A DNA stretch of 5,835 bases from a virus. Taxonomy: Duplodnaviria; Heunggongvirae; Uroviricota; Caudoviricetes. The position numbers and the translations under genes were made by a program. Where the stretch lies: IMG/VR virus record IMGVR_UViG_3300012275_000045, one strand, 5' to 3'. Each line of letters opens with the position of its first letter. Within the stretch, counting starts at the first letter, position 1. The notes beneath the pieces were generated by a model that ran no database searches, was not told the DNA's origin, and worked only from the letters and a program-made list of their open reading frames with translations. Shown piece by piece: positions 340 through 5,732 of the stretch.

Positions 340-615
340 TCAAATNNNNNNNNNNCCGGCATGCGTAAGCGCATCCAGTGGTGCCTTCAGGATATTGTCC
401 AGGTCGCGGCGGCGCTTATCCGGTGGCTCTGCAATAATCTTTATCGCCAGCCTTCCGGACAGGCTTAATTTCAGCCGCTGCTGGCGAACAATTAGCGCCA
501 CATCACGGCGATAACTCTTTCCGGCTTCCGAGATGAAATACGTATTGCCATGACGTCGCCAGTAGGTATTCACCGTCGGCGGGTAAGGCAAAACAAATTC
601 TATGCGTTCAGTCAT
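340..615 (-). CDS. rusA: RusA-family Holliday junction resolvase (crossover junction endodeoxyribonuclease); C-terminus unresolved because of the N run
   Basis: ORF-track protein MTERIEFVLPYPPTVNTYWRRHGNTY...PDKRRRDLDNILKAPLDALTHA matches the RusA signature as I recall it (LPxPPSxNxY near the N-terminus, PDxRRRDLDN, DALTxAG). ATG at 615..613 directly abuts the TGA stop (618..616) of the upstream DUF968 gene, indicating translational coupling. The model is 91 codons against about 120 for RusA; the 3' end at 340 is an artefact of reading through the N run. Confidence 0.8.
   Translation of the reverse strand: MTERIEFVLPYPPTVNTYWRRHGNTYFISEAGKSYRRDVALIVRQQRLKLSLSGRLAIKIIAEPPDKRRRDLDNILKAPLDALTHAXXXXI
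346..355. other. Run of 10 N (assembly gap or masked bases) inside the rusA 3' region
   Basis: Literal nnnnnnnnnn in the sequence. True length unknown, so the downstream reading frame of rusA cannot be trusted. Confidence 0.95.
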
Positions 616-2250: not shown

Positions 2251-2643
2251 CTACTGCCCTGTTTTAACGAAGTTTTTAAAGGAAACAACTGCCTGATAGG
2301 GGTTTGGTTGACAGCCAAACATATTATCGCAAAAAGGCTTGATGAAAATTCTTGAGGATCCATCTTCATTTGGCATTTTACTCACTTGATAAGCGAGGAA
2401 TGGACTATTTGGAGAGGGATTATAAGTGGAAATTAGCGTGTCTGTCGCCGTTTGAATTTTCCATGAGGAATTATTAGCCAACCAGAATTGCGCTCGTTTC
2501 CAATAAAAGTCACATTGCTTTTCATCATTACATGTTAGTGGCTTCATTGCTTCTGCTTTCAACGCTGGATCGACCTTTGCTGCACACCCTCCCAACATTA
2601 CTGTTGCAATCATTACACCTGCGACTAAAACAAGTTTCTTCAT
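2251..2643 (-). CDS. Putative Cys-rich lipoprotein (prophage moron), function unknown
   Basis: 130-aa ORF. N-terminus MKKLVLVAGVMIATVMLGGC has a typical signal peptide with lipobox-like LGGC (Cys20). The mature part has four further Cys (CNDEKQC and CDNMFGC). The gene is visibly AT-rich relative to the flanking nin genes and sits between two terminator-like elements that share a 12-mer. A GGGAG lies immediately upstream of the ATG with unusually short spacing. Confidence 0.7.
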   Translation of the reverse strand: MKKLVLVAGVMIATVMLGGCAAKVDPALKAEAMKPLTCNDEKQCDFYWKRAQFWLANNSSWKIQTATDTLISTYNPSPNSPFLAYQVSKMPNEDGSSRIFIKPFCDNMFGCQPNPYQAVVSFKNFVKTGQ

Positions 2644-2786: not shown

Positions 2787-2942
2787 TTACTCCTCAGGTT
2801 CGTAAGCTGTGAAGACAGCGACCTCCGTCTGGCCGGTTCGGATTCGTACCTCGCAGAGGTCTTTCCTCGTTACCAGTGCCGTCACAATGACGGTTAAACA
2901 GATGACGATCAGGGCGATTAACATCGCCTTTTGCTGCTTCAT
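2787..2942 (-). CDS. hokD: Hok/Gef-family type I toxin (HokD/RelF-like), 51 aa
   Basis: Translation MKQQKAMLIALIVICLTVIVTALVTRKDLCEVRIRTGQTEVAVFTAYEPEE: single TM helix plus the conserved RKxLCEV..R.G..EVAAF/VF motif of Hok/Gef, and it matches my recollection of E. coli HokD/RelF. AAGGAG lies 9 nt upstream of ATG 2942..2940. There is no relB/relE upstream, unlike the K-12 relBEF operon. Confidence 0.9.
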   Translation of the reverse strand: MKQQKAMLIALIVICLTVIVTALVTRKDLCEVRIRTGQTEVAVFTAYEPEE

Positions 2943-2999
2943 AGCCTGCTTCTCCTTGCCTTTCGGCACGTAAGAGGCTAACCTAGATTTGCCGTTCAT
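2787..2999 (-). CDS. mok: Mok-like in-frame N-terminally extended reading frame (modulator of hok translation), 70 codons
   Basis: In-frame upstream ATG at 2999..2997 with GAGG 7 nt upstream. The extension MNGKSRLASYVPKGKEKQA resembles the basic K/E-rich extension of chromosomal Mok proteins as I recall them (e.g. MokC ...RKVKEKRAMKQHK). Mok/hok overlap is the standard architecture of hok/sok loci. Confidence 0.5.
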   Translation of the reverse strand: MNGKSRLASYVPKGKEKQAMKQQKAMLIALIVICLTVIVTALVTRKDLCEVRIRTGQTEVAVFTAYEPEE

Positions 3000-3153
3000 A
3001 GATTGAGCCTCAGATTAATGTTAAGCGTCTTGCAGGACGCGTAATGTTAACTGGGGCTTTTCTCTATCTGCCTTTGGTGTTCATGCCTGAGACAGATAGC
3101 CTCAAGCACCCGCAGCCATTCTACTTAACTCCCGTTACCTCGCCAATATGAAA

Positions 3154-3243: not shown

Positions 3244-3736
3244 CACAACCTCCTGTATTGGACGTACATCAGTCCTGATAAATATGAGGCTGTCTCGTCA
3301 GTGATTCAATACAACTATTGGGTATAGTTTCTGTGATTTTGTTCTGTAGAAATGGAACACAATAACCAGTCACCACCAGCACTTCTTTAAATACGCCAAG
3401 TCCGACGCAAGCTAACCTTCTAGCCCACTTTGAGCGAGAAGCAGACATTTACTTAACTGGATAGCAAGAGACTTCATATATCATGGTTGATCCCGGAGTT
3501 TTCAATAATGGAAAGACATTGCCCGTATGATCGGGCCGTAACCACATTAGAAGCAGGTGCCCTTTGTGAATTTTGATTGTGTCAACCTATCTGTTTTGAA
3601 TTTTTTATAAAAAATATTCGCAAATTTGTGAATTATGAGAGACAAACGAGCATGGACAACCAATGTTACTTTCATACACAATGAAGCAACATGATAAAAG
3701 TACACTGACTTTAGCAAGTAAATTTAGGAGATTGCG

Positions 3737-5071
3737 ATGTTTAGCTTAATCATGGCCGGAGAACCGGACGTTTTTGACCGCTGGCCGTGTATGGACCCAG
3801 GGCTTACAGAAGGCGAGGAAAGATTCTCGATGTCCCGCATGCTGGAAGGCACCCCAAGCGATATTTACAGTAAATTAACACCAATAAGACCCGATACCTT
3901 AAGAGAACTCGCCAAGCTACCAGTATTGTTCATGACCGAAACTTATACAAAAGATGATGAATATGATACAAACAAGTACATCAGGATCAGACTTGGGGAA
4001 ATAAGAAATTTACGTAAAGATGGTGGCGATATTTTATTTTCTTTCAAGATTAATCATAATTTTGGAGAAATAACGAATCCCCAAACGACATTATATAAAG
4101 AAACCCTAGGGCTAGGATCTTTCGGGTTAAGCCGTACACATTGGGCAGTAAAAAATAAGGATTTAAATATTGTTCTGGAATCACTTGGTTTAAACAAACA
4201 AAATAGTCACCTCAAAGGTACAATCAAATTAAAAAAACAAACATACCCAGTAGTCGAGAATATTATAGATTATCTTAATTTCATAAAGAAAAACTTTCGT
4301 GATGGTCTCATTACCTTTTATCGTGGACACTCTAAAAGCTCATATGAGCTTGTCCCCTCTCTTTACAGAAAAAATCAAAACGGGACGTACAGGCATCTTG
4401 CTTCAGAATCTGATTTAGTACGTGAAATACTCAGCGCAAGACCAAATGAATTTAAGGAGGATAAATTTACGATTGATAAACTTGTCCGCATGCAGCATTA
4501 TGGCTTGCCTACAAGACTCTTAGACATTACATCTAACCCACTGATAGCATTATATTTTGCTTGCTGTTCGAACCCCAATGAAAACGGACAGGTGATTTCG
4601 TTTTCAACAAATAGAAAGAAAATTAAATATTTCGACTCAGATACAGTGAGCTGTATAGCAAACTTATCTCTTTTATCTTACGAAGAGTTGGAAAAATTGT
4701 CCTCCTCTGATTCCAGAAAAGGTAATATGGAGTTATCTGAACTCACTGATAAACTTGCAGACCTTATACAGAATGAAAAATCATATTTTAGAAACAGAAT
4801 AATTCCTGATGACTTAAGGAAAGTTGTTTTCCTTAAGGCTAAAATAAATAATGAACGCATACAATCTCAGGCAGGAGCTTTTCTTCTGTTCGGACTTGAT
4901 CCCATTTTACCGGAAACAGATGCTGAGTTTCCTCTTAACAGAGTGGAGATAGCGAACAAAAATAAAATTCTGGAAGAGCTGGCGCAGCTTAATATATCCG
5001 AAAGCACTGTATATCCCAGCATGGAGAAAACGGCAGCAGAAATTAAAAAAAAGTTTTTATCGGTATCATAA
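3737..5071 (+). CDS. FRG-domain protein (444 aa) with an uncharacterised ~190-aa N-terminal region; candidate anti-phage / abortive-infection effector
   Basis: Long ORF in very AT-rich DNA, where random ORFs this long are improbable. TAGGAG (3725-3730) lies 6 nt upstream of ATG 3737; an alternative start is ATG 3830, preceded by GAGGAA. Residues 194-197 FYRG followed by ...YELVPSLYR..., and residues 253-275 QHYGLPTRLLDITSNPLIALYFA, match the FRG domain signature (Pfam FRG, PF08867) as I remember it. C-terminal part is charged and coiled-coil-like (EELEKLSSSD...LADLIQNEK). Only gene on the plus strand in the window, with non-coding DNA on both sides. Confidence 0.85.
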   Translation: MFSLIMAGEPDVFDRWPCMDPGLTEGEERFSMSRMLEGTPSDIYSKLTPIRPDTLRELAKLPVLFMTETYTKDDEYDTNKYIRIRLGEIRNLRKDGGDILFSFKINHNFGEITNPQTTLYKETLGLGSFGLSRTHWAVKNKDLNIVLESLGLNKQNSHLKGTIKLKKQTYPVVENIIDYLNFIKKNFRDGLITFYRGHSKSSYELVPSLYRKNQNGTYRHLASESDLVREILSARPNEFKEDKFTIDKLVRMQHYGLPTRLLDITSNPLIALYFACCSNPNENGQVISFSTNRKKIKYFDSDTVSCIANLSLLSYEELEKLSSSDSRKGNMELSELTDKLADLIQNEKSYFRNRIIPDDLRKVVFLKAKINNERIQSQAGAFLLFGLDPILPETDAEFPLNRVEIANKNKILEELAQLNISESTVYPSMEKTAAEIKKKFLSVS

Positions 5072-5098
5072 AGGGATAAACTAAAGGCAACGAAAACT

Positions 5099-5114
5099 AA
5101 GACTGCGCAGTCTT
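5099..5114 (-). terminator. Palindromic hairpin, weak candidate terminator for minus-strand transcription between the convergent 5310..5732 and FRG genes
   Basis: aagactgcgcagtctt is a perfect 16-nt palindrome (6-bp AT-rich stem, GCGC loop). On the minus strand it is followed by AGUUUUCGUUGCCUUUAGUUU (U-rich); on the plus strand no U-tract follows. The stem is weak, so confidence is low. Confidence 0.3.
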
Positions 5115-5309
5115 CAGATGGAAGTGCTCATTGGGAACGGTTTCAGGGGCAAAAACTGGAAGTTCCAGTGGGCCTTGAGCTGCTCCCTATAAATTAACAT
5201 ATCTCAATGTTATCAATGTCTGCTTTTGGCACAAAGCGGACAACCACGCTAGCTCTACCCTGTGCCACAAAATGTCAATTTACATCTGAACTAATGCACT
5301 TTAATCTCG

Positions 5310-5732
5310 TCACTTCAAAAAATACCGAACATCCCCCTGATAAAACGACAATATCCGCTGCATAACTTCGCTTTTACGACACTCAGTACAAATTATATTA
5401 TGACGCCTGTCGTAACGACGTATTTCTCCATCAGGTAATGACCAGATAAGGTCCGGATCAACCGCAGATGGTTTCTTCAGCTTTGCCCTTGAGAGCTTTT
5501 TACGGGCATTTTGCCAGTCCTTACGCGCCTGTTCAGACGGGAATAACCCGTAACCAGAGTTGTATACATCGCCGCTGGCAACCAGCTCTCTTGCGAGAAC
5601 GCTCATCAGATATCTTGTCGCACCTGTCTTGACTTCCAGTTGCCGTAACGTCTCACGCCCACTCTGGCGTACGAGTTCAACAACCTGCCCTTTAATTTTT
5701 TCTCGCTCTTCTTGTGTAAAAACTTTTGCCAC
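5310..5732 (-). CDS. Hypothetical prophage protein, 140 aa, basic C-terminal half
   Basis: ORF-track ORF. Start is GTG at 5732..5730 with a perfect AGGAGG 4 nt upstream (taattttcAGGAGGactt-GTG). Protein MAKVFTQEEREKIKGQVVELVRQSGRETLRQLEVKTGATRYLMSVLARELVASGDVY... then a lysine/arginine-rich region (ARKKLSRAKLKKPS) and a single CTEC motif. No family recognised. Confidence 0.65.
   Translation of the reverse strand: MAKVFTQEEREKIKGQVVELVRQSGRETLRQLEVKTGATRYLMSVLARELVASGDVYNSGYGLFPSEQARKDWQNARKKLSRAKLKKPSAVDPDLIWSLPDGEIRRYDRRHNIICTECRKSEVMQRILSFYQGDVRYFLK

What the first reader, a model, noticed from the sequence alone, without database searches (positions are those of the whole stretch)
3737..5071. 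Stand-alone FRG-domain protein in an AT-rich island inside the prophage: candidate single-gene anti-phage system
The 444-aa ORF carries FYRG...YELVPSLYR and QHYGLPTRLLDITSNPLIALYFA, which I recognise as the FRG domain (PF08867), a domain with no established biochemical function. It is fused to an ~190-aa N-terminal region and a charged coiled-coil-like C-terminal region that I cannot place. The gene is far more AT-rich than the flanking nin genes, is the only plus-strand gene, is flanked by ~700 bp and ~240 bp of non-coding DNA, and sits beside a hok toxin locus between the early and nin regions, a classic moron/defense-cargo position. That it is a defense or Abi effector is inference; I cannot tie it to a named system from memory.
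Basis: partly seen in the sequence, partly recalled or inferred. Interest (0 to 1): 0.8.

Follow-up and report, generated by a model that had tools for sequence, protein, structure and literature searches.

The report
Prophage sensor–FRG candidate anti-phage gene
This prophage gene encodes a two-part protein, a nucleotide-reader-like sensor joined to an ADP-ribosyltransferase-like FRG domain, on a small swappable DNA cassette that in other phages carries known anti-phage systems, so it is very probably an untested single-gene phage-defence system.

Summary
The 444-aa ORF at 3737-5071 (+) is real. It hits Pfam FRG (E 2.7e-22) and the PADLOC single-gene candidate PDC-S15 (E 2.7e-99). Residues 1-155 are a PUA-like (EVE/YTH-type) fold that no Pfam or PADLOC model covers. 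Residues ~173-444, including the supposed coiled-coil tail, are one ART-like (ADP-ribosyltransferase-like) FRG domain.

The N-terminal module is widespread (846 cluster representatives). It is also fused to TIR, HEPN-type Abi_C, kinase, PNP and, once, CD-NTase+FRG domains, which is how an interchangeable immune sensor behaves.

The gene sits on a 1.8-kb, low-GC cassette bounded by ~25-bp inverted repeats. The same arms bracket a type I CBASS, a TIR-NLR and PDC-S39 in other phages. A 95.7%-identical ortholog in E. coli LF82 prophage Tritos is transcribed in the lysogen while neighbouring lytic genes are silent.

Most likely mechanism (inferred): the sensor binds an infection-derived nucleotide or modified base and switches on NAD+-consuming FRG activity, aborting infection. 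No experiment has tested this. I rate it a new variant of a known kind, interest about 0.65.

The parts
3425..3449 (.). Left arm of the imperfect inverted repeat bounding the cassette (CCACTTTGAGCGAGAAGCAGACATT)
   Evidence: 20/25 complementary to 5215-5239; alignment score 30 against shuffles of 13.9+-2.2, 0 of 300 reaching it. Identity to prophages with other cargo stops at the inner end of the arm. Similarity to the Klebsiella copy starts here.
3450..3736 (+). Cassette-specific upstream region. It holds a weak sigma-70-like site (TGGACA-18-CACAAT, 3653-3682), the palindrome ATTCGCAAATTTGTGAAT (3616-3633) and the RBS AGGAG (3726-3730).
   Evidence: 254 bp upstream of the ATG travel with the gene into an unrelated Klebsiella context at 88.5% identity. 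Promoter-like site, not enriched over shuffles. Palindrome. RBS.
3737..5071 (+). ORF of 444 aa plus stop: sensor-FRG protein (PADLOC PDC-S15; phrog_4962)
   Evidence: dN/dS 0.20-0.37 against close orthologs. Full-length homologs at 41-87% identity across Proteobacteria.
3737..4201 (+). aa 1-155: N-terminal PUA-like (EVE/YTH-type fold) sensor module. Motifs LSRxLExT, LPxLFMxE and NRTHWAVK. Near-invariant residues R34, E37, T39, P62, E68, G87, R133, H135, W136; K139 is invariant in the smaller alignments A1, A3 and A4.
4202..4252 (+). aa 156-172: variable, Lys/Asn-rich linker
   Evidence: Poorly conserved and gapped in alignment A1; no regular secondary structure.
4253..5068 (+). aa 173-444: FRG effector domain with an ART-like fold. 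The Pfam FRG core is aa 193-282 (nt 4313-4582) and the helical insert is aa ~300-361 (nt 4634-4819). Invariant residues include R196-G197-H198, S208, D263, T265, N267, S301-D302-T303, E347-K348, N372, R374 and Q378.
5215..5239 (.). Right arm of the inverted repeat (AATGTCTGCTTTTGGCACAAAGCGG)
   Evidence: Cargo-specific sequence ends immediately to the left of the arm in all variants. Similarity to the Klebsiella copy ends right after it.
2787..3111 (-). Context: hok/mok toxin ORF (2787-2999) and sok antisense RNA (2937-3111), forming the conserved left flank of the slot
   Evidence: Pfam HOK_GEF E 3e-23; Rfam sok 110 bits.
5310..5732 (-). Context: DUF977 / Ren-like gene, forming the conserved right flank of the slot
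   Evidence: Pfam DUF977 E 4e-29; phrog_142.

Best explanation
The gene encodes a self-contained sensor-effector immune protein. It is carried as lysogen-expressed cargo (a moron) on a small cassette bounded by inverted repeats in a lambdoid prophage.

The N-terminal PUA-like module (aa 1-155) is the input. It binds an infection-associated nucleotide or modified base through a conserved pocket of basic, acidic and aromatic residues (R34, E37, E68, R133, H135, W136, K139). The C-terminal FRG domain (aa 173-444) is the output. It is an ART-fold enzyme that uses NAD+, either hydrolysing it or transferring ADP-ribose. Ligand binding relieves autoinhibition and the FRG activity arrests or kills the infected cell, so the superinfecting phage fails (abortive infection).

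Shown here: the domain anatomy and folds, the modular reuse of the sensor, cassette mobility, defence-type cargo in the same cassette, transcription of the ortholog in a lysogen, and purifying selection.

Inferred: that it defends at all, the ligand, the NAD+ chemistry, and the abortive outcome.
For: Domain identity and fold
- FRG Pfam hit and PDC-S15 hits.
- The AF2 model is confident: pLDDT 83.8, pTM 0.84.
- The literature places Frg in the ART superfamily as a predicted antiviral effector or NADase.

The sensor is a reusable module
- It is found in 846 cluster representatives.
- It keeps the same near-invariant residues when fused to FRG (20/77), CAP12/Pycsar-type TIR (15), TIR_2/TIR/SEFIR, Abi_C (6), Pkinase (5), PNP_UDP_1, SLFN_AlbA_2 and DncV-like NTase+FRG.
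- No DNase partner was seen among the 77. That favours an allosteric switch over DNA-targeted restriction.

Precedent
- Metis MisA and PUA-Cal-HAD are PUA-like sensors that bind m6-dAMP and activate NAD+- or dNTP-depleting effectors.

Stand-alone gene in mobile contexts
- The gene and its sister architectures lie in mobile or defence contexts, each time with different neighbours.

Slot and cassette cargo
- The slot or cassette also carries PDC-S39, a type I CBASS and a TIR-NLR.
- Rousset et al. list 'FRG + RVT_1' among P2 hotspot cargo.

Expression and selection
- The ortholog LF82_282 reaches log2 ~9.25 in the lysogen, while the adjacent lytic genes stay at 2.3-4.8.
- dN/dS is 0.2-0.37.
Against: - No experiment shows defence for any FRG or PDC-S15 protein in the searchable literature.
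- A profile comparison of FRG with a RES alignment was negative (probability 0.08%).
- A canonical catalytic Glu could not be mapped. The residue before the strand at aa 381-385 is an invariant Gln (Q378).
- The sensor has no sequence relationship to the MisA/PUA-Cal sensor (hhalign 0.1-0.2%) and lacks its Trp-rich motifs. The ligand analogy therefore holds at fold level only.
- In LB stationary phase the ortholog is only ~3-5 times above silent neighbours and was not called a moron by the authors.
- The promoter-like site is weak and not enriched over shuffles.
Confidence: 0.5

Rival explanations
1. Type IV-like direct reader. The PUA-like module recognises modified bases in incoming phage DNA or RNA (for example 5hmC, glucosyl-hmC or m6A). 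It then positions the FRG domain to ADP-ribosylate that nucleic acid or an associated phage protein, blocking replication without necessarily killing the cell. This would resemble DarT in chemistry and EVE-HNH enzymes in recognition.
Against: Among 77 proteins carrying the same module, no nuclease or other DNA-acting partner appeared. The partners are TIR, HEPN, kinase, PNP and CD-NTase domains, which is the repertoire of switch-type abortive systems. No DarG-like antidote gene is adjacent.
Confidence: 0.15
2. Orphan second-messenger receptor-effector. The module is a receptor for a cyclic (oligo)nucleotide made by a cyclase encoded elsewhere in the cell (CBASS- or Pycsar-like signalling in trans), and FRG is the effector it activates.
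For: One homolog, P0199, is a single 760-aa ORF made of a CD-NTase (E 1e-112), the module and FRG (E 2e-98). The module also replaces the sensor part of a CBASS PN-superfamily effector in P0268. It pairs with CAP12/Pycsar-type TIR domains in 15 of 77 proteins.
Against: The fusion was seen on one metagenome contig only. No cyclase lies next to the window gene, the P2-hotspot copies, the island copies or three sister-architecture genes. PADLOC treats both PDC-S15 and PDC-S35 as single-gene candidates. A prophage cassette that moves between hosts cannot count on a matching cyclase being present.
Confidence: 0.12
3. Non-defence moron. The protein is an ART-like enzyme that modifies a host target for the benefit of the lysogen or the prophage, for example stress or virulence adaptation or control of induction, and is unrelated to superinfecting phages.
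For: Transcription of the LF82 ortholog depends on growth condition. It is about 16-fold higher in condition B6 than in LB stationary phase. LF82 is an adherent-invasive strain whose prophages carry adaptive morons. In Klebsiella the cassette sits in a bacteriocin island.
Against: The sensor module's partner domains are overwhelmingly immune effectors. The same cassette arms carry a CBASS and a TIR-NLR. Homologs sit in the P2 gpQ-gpA hotspot. The family is a PADLOC defence candidate.
Confidence: 0.1
4. Inert passenger. The gene is a decaying or functionless hitchhiker on a mobile cassette.
For: It is rare, with the full locus in 28 of 5426 complete E. coli genomes. Truncated copies exist in databases.
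Against: The ORF is intact and full-length across genera at 41-87% identity, with about 70 invariant columns. dN/dS is 0.2-0.37. It is transcribed in LF82.
Confidence: 0.03

Closest known systems
PADLOC candidate system PDC-S15 (single-gene, FRG-domain proteins)
   Same: aa 166-440 match 14 PDC-S15 HMMs, the best at E 2.7e-99. It is a single gene with no conserved neighbour and lies in mobile or defence contexts.
   Different: The best-matching HMMs are about 286-300 positions long and begin at the FRG domain. The 155-aa N-terminal sensor module is therefore an addition not represented in these models. PDC-S15 is a prediction, and I found no experimental validation.
Metis MisA / PUA-Cal-HAD (PUA-like sensor of m6-dAMP fused to a calcineurin-like phosphoesterase; bioRxiv 10.1101/2025.11.05.686725 and 10.64898/2026.01.15.699771)
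   Same: One polypeptide with an N-terminal PUA-like fold sensor and a C-terminal enzyme that acts on a nucleotide cofactor. Both are abortive-type systems found in E. coli accessory DNA. The published PUA-like family is also fused to HEPN, DrHyd and TIR domains, a partner list that overlaps the one found here.
   Different: No sequence relationship between the sensors (hhalign probability 0.1-0.2%). The VWWGWWxKxxExxP and TPxYY motifs are absent. The effector is FRG/ART-like rather than a metallophosphatase. There is no HAD partner gene. FRG is not among the effectors listed in that paper's main text.
Modification-dependent (type IV) restriction enzymes with PUA-superfamily readers (VcaM4I; PD-T4-3; the McrB N-terminal domain)
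   Different: There is no nuclease or NTPase domain, and none of 77 module-bearing relatives has one. No EVE, YTH, ASCH or SRA Pfam model matches.
ART-superfamily toxins and defence enzymes (RES NAD+ phosphorylases such as the toxin in 8gug and ParT; DarT; Rhs toxins TreX and TreTu; cholera-toxin and pertussis-toxin group)
   Different: No profile-level sequence link to RES. No cognate antitoxin or immunity gene. A large helical insert (aa ~300-361). The catalytic Glu is not identified.
CBASS/Pycsar effector proteins (nucleotide-sensor domain fused to TIR, PNP, HEPN or TM effectors)
   Same: The same sensor-plus-effector logic and the same effector families among sister architectures. There is one CD-NTase-module-FRG fusion.
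   Different: No cyclase is in the window, in the prophage or next to any examined homolog. The sensor fold is PUA-like, not SAVED, STING or cNMP-binding.

Membership tests
FRG domain (Pfam PF08867) | HMM score above the curated gathering threshold | tested here: met
   79.9 bits against a cut-off of 25, E 2.7e-22, aa 193-282, profile positions 3-92 of 94.
PADLOC PDC-S15 | Near full-length match to the family HMMs | tested here: met
   PDLC04936 at E 2.7e-99, profile positions 17-296 of 300, aa 166-440; 13 further PDC-S15 models also match.
PADLOC PDC-S15 | Single-gene system: no conserved partner gene | tested here: met
   Neighbours differ in seven context types. The cassette contains only this ORF.
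PADLOC PDC-S15 | Demonstrated anti-phage activity | not testable with these tools
   No experimental report found.
ADP-ribosyltransferase (ART) superfamily | ART split beta-sheet fold | tested here: met
   [not shown]
ADP-ribosyltransferase (ART) superfamily | Catalytic triad (R-S-E or H-Y-E) in the canonical strands | tested here: inconclusive
   R196 in 'FYRGH' on the first strand, and T265-S266-N267 after the strand 'LLDIT', are candidates for the R and S-T-S positions. The position before strand 381-385 is an invariant Gln (Q378), preceded by a low-confidence loop at aa 371-377.
ADP-ribosyltransferase (ART) superfamily | Profile-level sequence relationship to an established ART clade (RES) | tested here: not met
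   hhalign of A2 against a RES alignment gave probability 0.08%. Caveat: the RES alignment was of low diversity (70-80% identity).
ADP-ribosyltransferase (ART) superfamily | NAD+ binding and NADase or transferase activity | not testable with these tools
   Requires biochemistry.
PUA-like superfamily (EVE/YTH/ASCH readers) | PUA-like pseudo-barrel fold | tested here: met
   [not shown]
PUA-like superfamily (EVE/YTH/ASCH readers) | Match to a Pfam model of the clan (EVE, YTH, ASCH, SRA, PUA) | tested here: not met
   No Pfam family at E<=10 for aa 1-160. No PDB sequence relative for the module profile.
PUA-like superfamily (EVE/YTH/ASCH readers) | Aromatic or charged base-binding pocket formed by conserved residues | tested here: inconclusive
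   The conserved residues are of the right kinds (W16, F65, F103, H135, W136; R34, R133, K139; E37, E68). Their spatial clustering could not be checked.
MisA / PUA-Cal sensor family (m6-dAMP sensor) | Motifs VWWGWWxKxxExxP and TPxYY; profile similarity | tested here: not met
   The motifs are absent. hhalign of A3 against 12 PUA-Cal sensor domains gave probability 0.1-0.2%.
CBASS (as effector) | CD-NTase encoded in the same operon | tested here: not met
   No cyclase in the window or in the 27-kb prophage context. One distant fusion protein, P0199, is the only link.
   No such domain in the protein or in 77 module-bearing relatives.
Toxin-antitoxin module | Adjacent cognate antitoxin gene or RNA | tested here: not met
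   The cassette holds one ORF. Rfam finds only sok, which belongs to hok. No small ORF is conserved with the gene across contexts.

The most novel reading that the evidence does not exclude
The N-terminal 155 residues define a previously unmodelled PUA-like sensor family that works as a general plug-in input for at least eight immune effector classes: FRG, three TIR types, HEPN, kinase, PNP and CD-NTase. It would detect one specific infection-derived nucleotide or modified base. FRG would then be a new NAD+-consuming effector class. The ~25-bp inverted-repeat arms would mark a so far undescribed vehicle that shuttles single defence systems (FRG, CBASS, TIR-NLR, PDC-S39) between lambdoid prophages, P2 hotspots and chromosomal islands.
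Probability: 0.3. Interest if true: 0.85.

Novelty: new variant of a known kind. Interest (0 to 1): 0.65.

Why it matters
FRG is a widespread domain whose biochemistry has never been measured. This locus offers a tractable way to measure it. It is a single gene with its own promoter, from E. coli, and a near-identical copy sits in a cultivable phage (Tritos) and strain (LF82).

The analysis turns 'unknown N-terminus + FRG + unknown tail' into an explicit sensor-effector model with named residues to mutate. It also links the sensor to a large family of TIR, HEPN and kinase proteins, so finding the ligand once would explain many systems.

The inverted-repeat-bounded cassette, if general, would be a practical signature for finding new defence genes. 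It would also give a mechanism for how prophage hotspots exchange them.

Tried and rejected
- Foldseek of the full model against the PDB found nothing with E<=0.001.
- Sequence and profile searches of the PDB with the whole protein, the module and the FRG part gave only chance-level hits.
- NCBIfam has no model for the protein.
- Pfam on the isolated N-terminal and C-terminal parts found nothing significant.
- hhalign of the module against PUA-Cal/MisA sensors was negative.
- hhalign of FRG against RES was negative.
- I considered a link to the validated system PD-T4-6. I rejected it because the PD-T4-6, mad6 and Stk2 HMMs match only the kinase domain of module-kinase proteins.
- PDC-S35 HMMs likewise cover essentially only the TIR half of those proteins.
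- Promoter and terminator scans were not enriched over shuffles, and no canonical terminator follows the gene.
- The context of the Rhizobium homolog P0118 is not on record.
- Inverted-repeat arms around the divergent FRG copies in P2-like prophages appear only as single 6-mismatch hits, which is the background rate of 2 per 721 kb. Those copies are therefore not on this cassette.
- tblastn of the 833-aa TIR-NLR cargo against GenBank phages gave no match.
- Literature searches for FRG, PF08867 or PDC-S15 together with defence found no functional study. The Vassallo et al. supplements do not mention FRG.
- The Burroughs & Aravind 2020 paper that first described Frg as an ART is not held.
Full report
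1. THE OBSERVATION

The ORF at 3737..5071 (+), 444 aa, is present as described. An AGGAG ribosome-binding site ends 6 nt before the ATG. Pfam FRG (PF08867) matches aa 193-282 at 79.9 bits against a cut-off of 25.

The gene has GC 0.369 and GC3 0.342. The surrounding prophage has GC about 0.46-0.53.

The window is part of a lambdoid prophage. A 98% identical copy in E. coli SJC33 has this order: int, exo, dicB, cI, cro, YdaT, replication, DUF977, [FRG on the opposite strand], hokD, two small genes, DUF968, RusA, Q, tRNAs, lysis, then head genes. The complete locus occurs in only 28 of 5426 complete E. coli genomes. One of them is LF82, where it belongs to prophage Tritos as TRITO_38, 95.7% amino-acid identity.

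2. WHAT THE PROTEIN IS

PADLOC assigns aa 166-440 to the single-gene 'phage defence candidate' PDC-S15, with the best model at E 2.7e-99. PHROGs has a full-length family of unknown function. NCBIfam and the PDB have no sequence relatives.

Full-length homologs at 41-87% identity occur in Enterobacterales, Aeromonas, Rhizobium and Sphingomonas. They share about 70 invariant columns spread over the whole length. The N-terminal region is therefore a conserved part of the family and not a recent fusion.

- ADP-ribosyltransferases.

The anatomy is therefore:
- aa 1-155: a PUA-like domain.
- aa 156-172: a variable linker.
- aa 173-444: a single ART-like FRG domain with a helical insert at aa ~300-361.

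The 'coiled-coil-like tail' belongs to the FRG domain. The ART assignment agrees with published sequence analysis, which places Frg in the ART superfamily as a predicted antiviral effector or NADase. In my hands the assignment is at fold level only. Foldseek was negative and a profile comparison with RES was negative.

3. THE N-TERMINAL DOMAIN IS A REUSABLE SENSOR MODULE

No Pfam model matches it, even at E<=10. An exhaustive profile search found 846 cluster representatives at E<=1e-3, of which 191 had E<=1e-10. Their lengths range from about 150 to 867 aa.

I scanned the 77 listed hits of at least 240 aa against Pfam. The C-terminal partners were FRG (20), CAP12/Pycsar-type TIR (15), TIR_2 (5), TIR (3), SEFIR (2), Abi_C (6; by my own knowledge the HEPN-type abortive-infection C-terminus), AbiJ_NTD3 (1), protein kinase (5), PNP_UDP_1 (1), Schlafen/AlbA_2 (1), DncV-like nucleotidyltransferase (1), EAD2 (1) and FGE-sulfatase (1).

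A class of ~278-aa proteins carries a TIR/DrHyd-like C-terminus with a weak Nuc_deoxyrib_tr match. P0148 carries TIR_2.

The same residues stay nearly invariant across all architectures: R34, E37, T39, P62, E68, G87, R133, H135 and W136, with the signature NRTHWAVK; K139 is invariant in the smaller alignments. PADLOC recognises the partner halves as PDC-S35, CBASS TIR and PN effectors, and kinase systems. It has no model for the module itself.

One protein, P0199, is a single 760-aa ORF made of a CD-NTase, the module and FRG.

This mix-and-match pattern is what is expected of an input domain in conflict systems. None of the 77 partners is a DNase. That suggests the module switches an enzyme on rather than delivering it to modified DNA.

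The closest functional precedents are Metis MisA and PUA-Cal-HAD. In both, a PUA-like domain binds m6-dAMP released when a phage degrades the host chromosome, and this activates NAD+ or dNTP depletion. To test for homology I recovered 12 PUA-Cal-type proteins by scanning genomes for their motif. Their sensors have no profile similarity to this module (hhalign 0.1-0.2%), and their Trp-rich motifs are absent here. The two are at most related at superfamily fold level.

4. GENOMIC SETTING

The DUF977-hok slot is variable among related prophages. It holds DUF5677, DUF4209 (PADLOC PDC-S39, E 8e-103), a 340-aa hypothetical protein, an alpha/beta hydrolase, QueH, small ORFs, or a deletion.

The neighbouring hok-DUF968 slot is also variable. 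The window carries a lipoprotein gene there, and Tritos carries an RmrT/RmrA-like pair.

Divergent full-length FRG homologs sit in several other settings.
- The P2 gpQ-gpA hotspot, as defined by Rousset et al.. In one lineage the FRG gene lies next to a type VI retron-like reverse transcriptase, and in another next to unrelated genes. The Rousset supplement lists 'hypothetical + FRG + RVT_1' as hotspot cargo, and FRG does not appear among the systems they report testing.
- An integrase/Fic/DUF87/AlpA island.
- Beside IS2 in phage PhiR11_1.
- A Klebsiella colicin/microcin island.

No neighbour is conserved across these settings. Three sister-architecture genes are likewise solitary and lie in mobile contexts.

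5. THE CASSETTE

Comparison with the alternative-cargo prophages puts the junctions at about 3437-3454 and 5206-5215. A 25-bp imperfect inverted repeat lies exactly there, at 3425-3449 and 5215-5239. It is 20/25 complementary, with an alignment score of 30 against 13.9+-2.2 in shuffles and 0 of 300 shuffles reaching it.

In every cargo variant, identity runs up to the inner edge of each arm and then stops. In Klebsiella, similarity to the window is confined to 3431-5242. It begins and ends at the arms and includes 254 bp upstream of the ATG. The gene therefore moves with its own regulatory region.

A scan of viral contigs for the arm sequence found paired, inverted arms around other low-GC cargo.
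- The FRG gene, in four contigs.
- A complete type I CBASS, with the cyclase at E 7e-135 and a 4TM effector at E 9e-140.
- A TIR-NLR (E 2e-30) in two contigs, one of them beside a P2-like portal gene.
- A 219-aa ORF.
- A nearly empty 473-bp version.

The CBASS and TIR-NLR contigs share no flanking sequence or flanking proteins with the window. Single arm-like hits occur at about 2 per 721 kb in unrelated DNA, so the paired arms are not chance. I could not establish how the cassette moves, and I saw no obvious target-site duplication.

6. EXPRESSION AND SELECTION

Public RNA-seq of LF82 (PMC9928086, S1 Table) gives LF82_282, the Tritos ortholog, these log2(fpkm+5) values: 5.2/4.7 in LB stationary phase, 6.9/7.3 in B1, 9.27/9.23 in B6, and 6.7-6.9 in macrophages. 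The B1 and B6 conditions are probably growth in DMEM.

The adjacent lytic-cycle genes LF82_283-286 stay at 2.3-4.8 in all conditions. CI is at 7.7-11.7.

The ortholog is thus transcribed on its own in the lysogen and in a condition-dependent way. It missed the authors' 5-fold moron cut-off in LB.

dN/dS against the two closest orthologs is 0.20 and 0.27, from small counts.

7. HOW IT MOST LIKELY WORKS

The best-supported model is a single-protein sensor-effector. I put my confidence in it at about 0.5. Section 8 gives its rivals and the finding's novelty.

- The PUA-like module binds an infection-associated nucleotide or modified base.
- Binding releases the ART-like FRG domain, which consumes NAD+ by hydrolysis or ADP-ribosyl transfer.
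- That aborts the infection.

Shown: the folds, the modular reuse of the sensor, the mobility of the cassette, the company the gene keeps, lysogen transcription of the ortholog, and purifying selection.

Inferred: that the gene defends at all, the ligand, the chemistry and the abortive outcome.

Candidate catalytic residues are R196 (FYRGH, first strand), T265-S266-N267 (after strand LLDIT) and Q378, which follows a low-confidence loop at aa 371-377 that may correspond to the ARTT loop. I could not verify these by superposition.

8. RIVALS AND NOVELTY

The rival explanations are a direct reader of modified phage nucleic acid with DarT-like chemistry (0.15), an orphan receptor for a cyclase product made in trans (0.12), a non-defence moron (0.10) and an inert passenger (0.03).

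The family is already catalogued as a candidate (PDC-S15), and FRG already has a published fold prediction, so this is not categorically new. Three things appear to be new.
- Placing the N-terminal region as a PUA-like sensor.
- Showing that this unmodelled module is shared with TIR, HEPN, kinase, PNP and CD-NTase proteins.
- Finding the inverted-repeat-bounded cassette that also carries a CBASS and a TIR-NLR.

I rate the finding a new variant of a known kind, with interest 0.65.

Noticed in passing
window 3425-3449 and 5215-5239; also L006, L007, L129, L135, L139, L140, L142, L146: An imperfect inverted repeat of ~25-27 bp (consensus GTCCGCTTTG.GC.A.AAGCAGACAT) bounds the exchangeable cargo exactly. 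The same paired arms bracket a type I CBASS, a TIR-NLR, PDC-S39 and other low-GC cargo in unrelated phage backgrounds and in a Klebsiella island. The mechanism of movement is unknown and no target-site duplication was seen.
   Followed up: partly
window 2251-2643 (-): A 130-aa predicted lipoprotein (signal peptide with LGGC lipobox, GC 0.40, phrog_16082, no Pfam or PADLOC hit) occupies a second variable slot between hok and DUF968. In Tritos the same slot holds an RmrT/RmrA-like (ImmA/IrrE) pair that is expressed in the lysogen. It could be a superinfection-exclusion or other moron.
   Followed up: partly
L124 6001-8283 (protein P0199): A single 760-aa ORF fusing a CBASS-type CD-NTase, the sensor module and an FRG domain. 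It lies on one metagenome contig between transposase genes, with a DruA gene nearby. This is the only link between this family and cyclic-oligonucleotide signalling.
   Followed up: partly
window 2787-3146 (-): A complete hok/mok/sok locus: Pfam HOK_GEF, Rfam sok at 2937-3111, and a promoter-like site at 3146-3118. The LF82 ortholog hokD is by far the most highly transcribed gene of prophage Tritos (log2 about 15-17).
   Followed up: no
window 3616-3633: The palindrome ATTCGCAAATTTGTGAAT lies about 20 bp upstream of the only promoter-like site in front of the FRG gene. It may be an operator, which would fit the condition-dependent transcription of the LF82 ortholog.
   Followed up: no
window 346-355 and 1315-1324: Two 10-base runs of N (masked sequence) interrupt the RusA and DUF968 reading frames. 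They show up as XXXX in the translations and are not biological.
   Followed up: no
[not shown]
   Followed up: no
L008 (E. coli DL21) against window 3266-5436: The apparently 'empty' version of the slot is a deletion. It joins window position 3266 to 5436, removes both cassette arms and changes the C-terminus of DUF977.
   Followed up: partly
L002 and L012-L015 (P2-like prophages): In the P2 gpQ-gpA hotspot a 44-45% identical FRG homolog lies next to a type VI retron-like reverse transcriptase (PADLOC RT_VI, E 1e-105) on the opposite strand. Rousset et al. list this arrangement as 'hypothetical + FRG + RVT_1'.
   Followed up: partly
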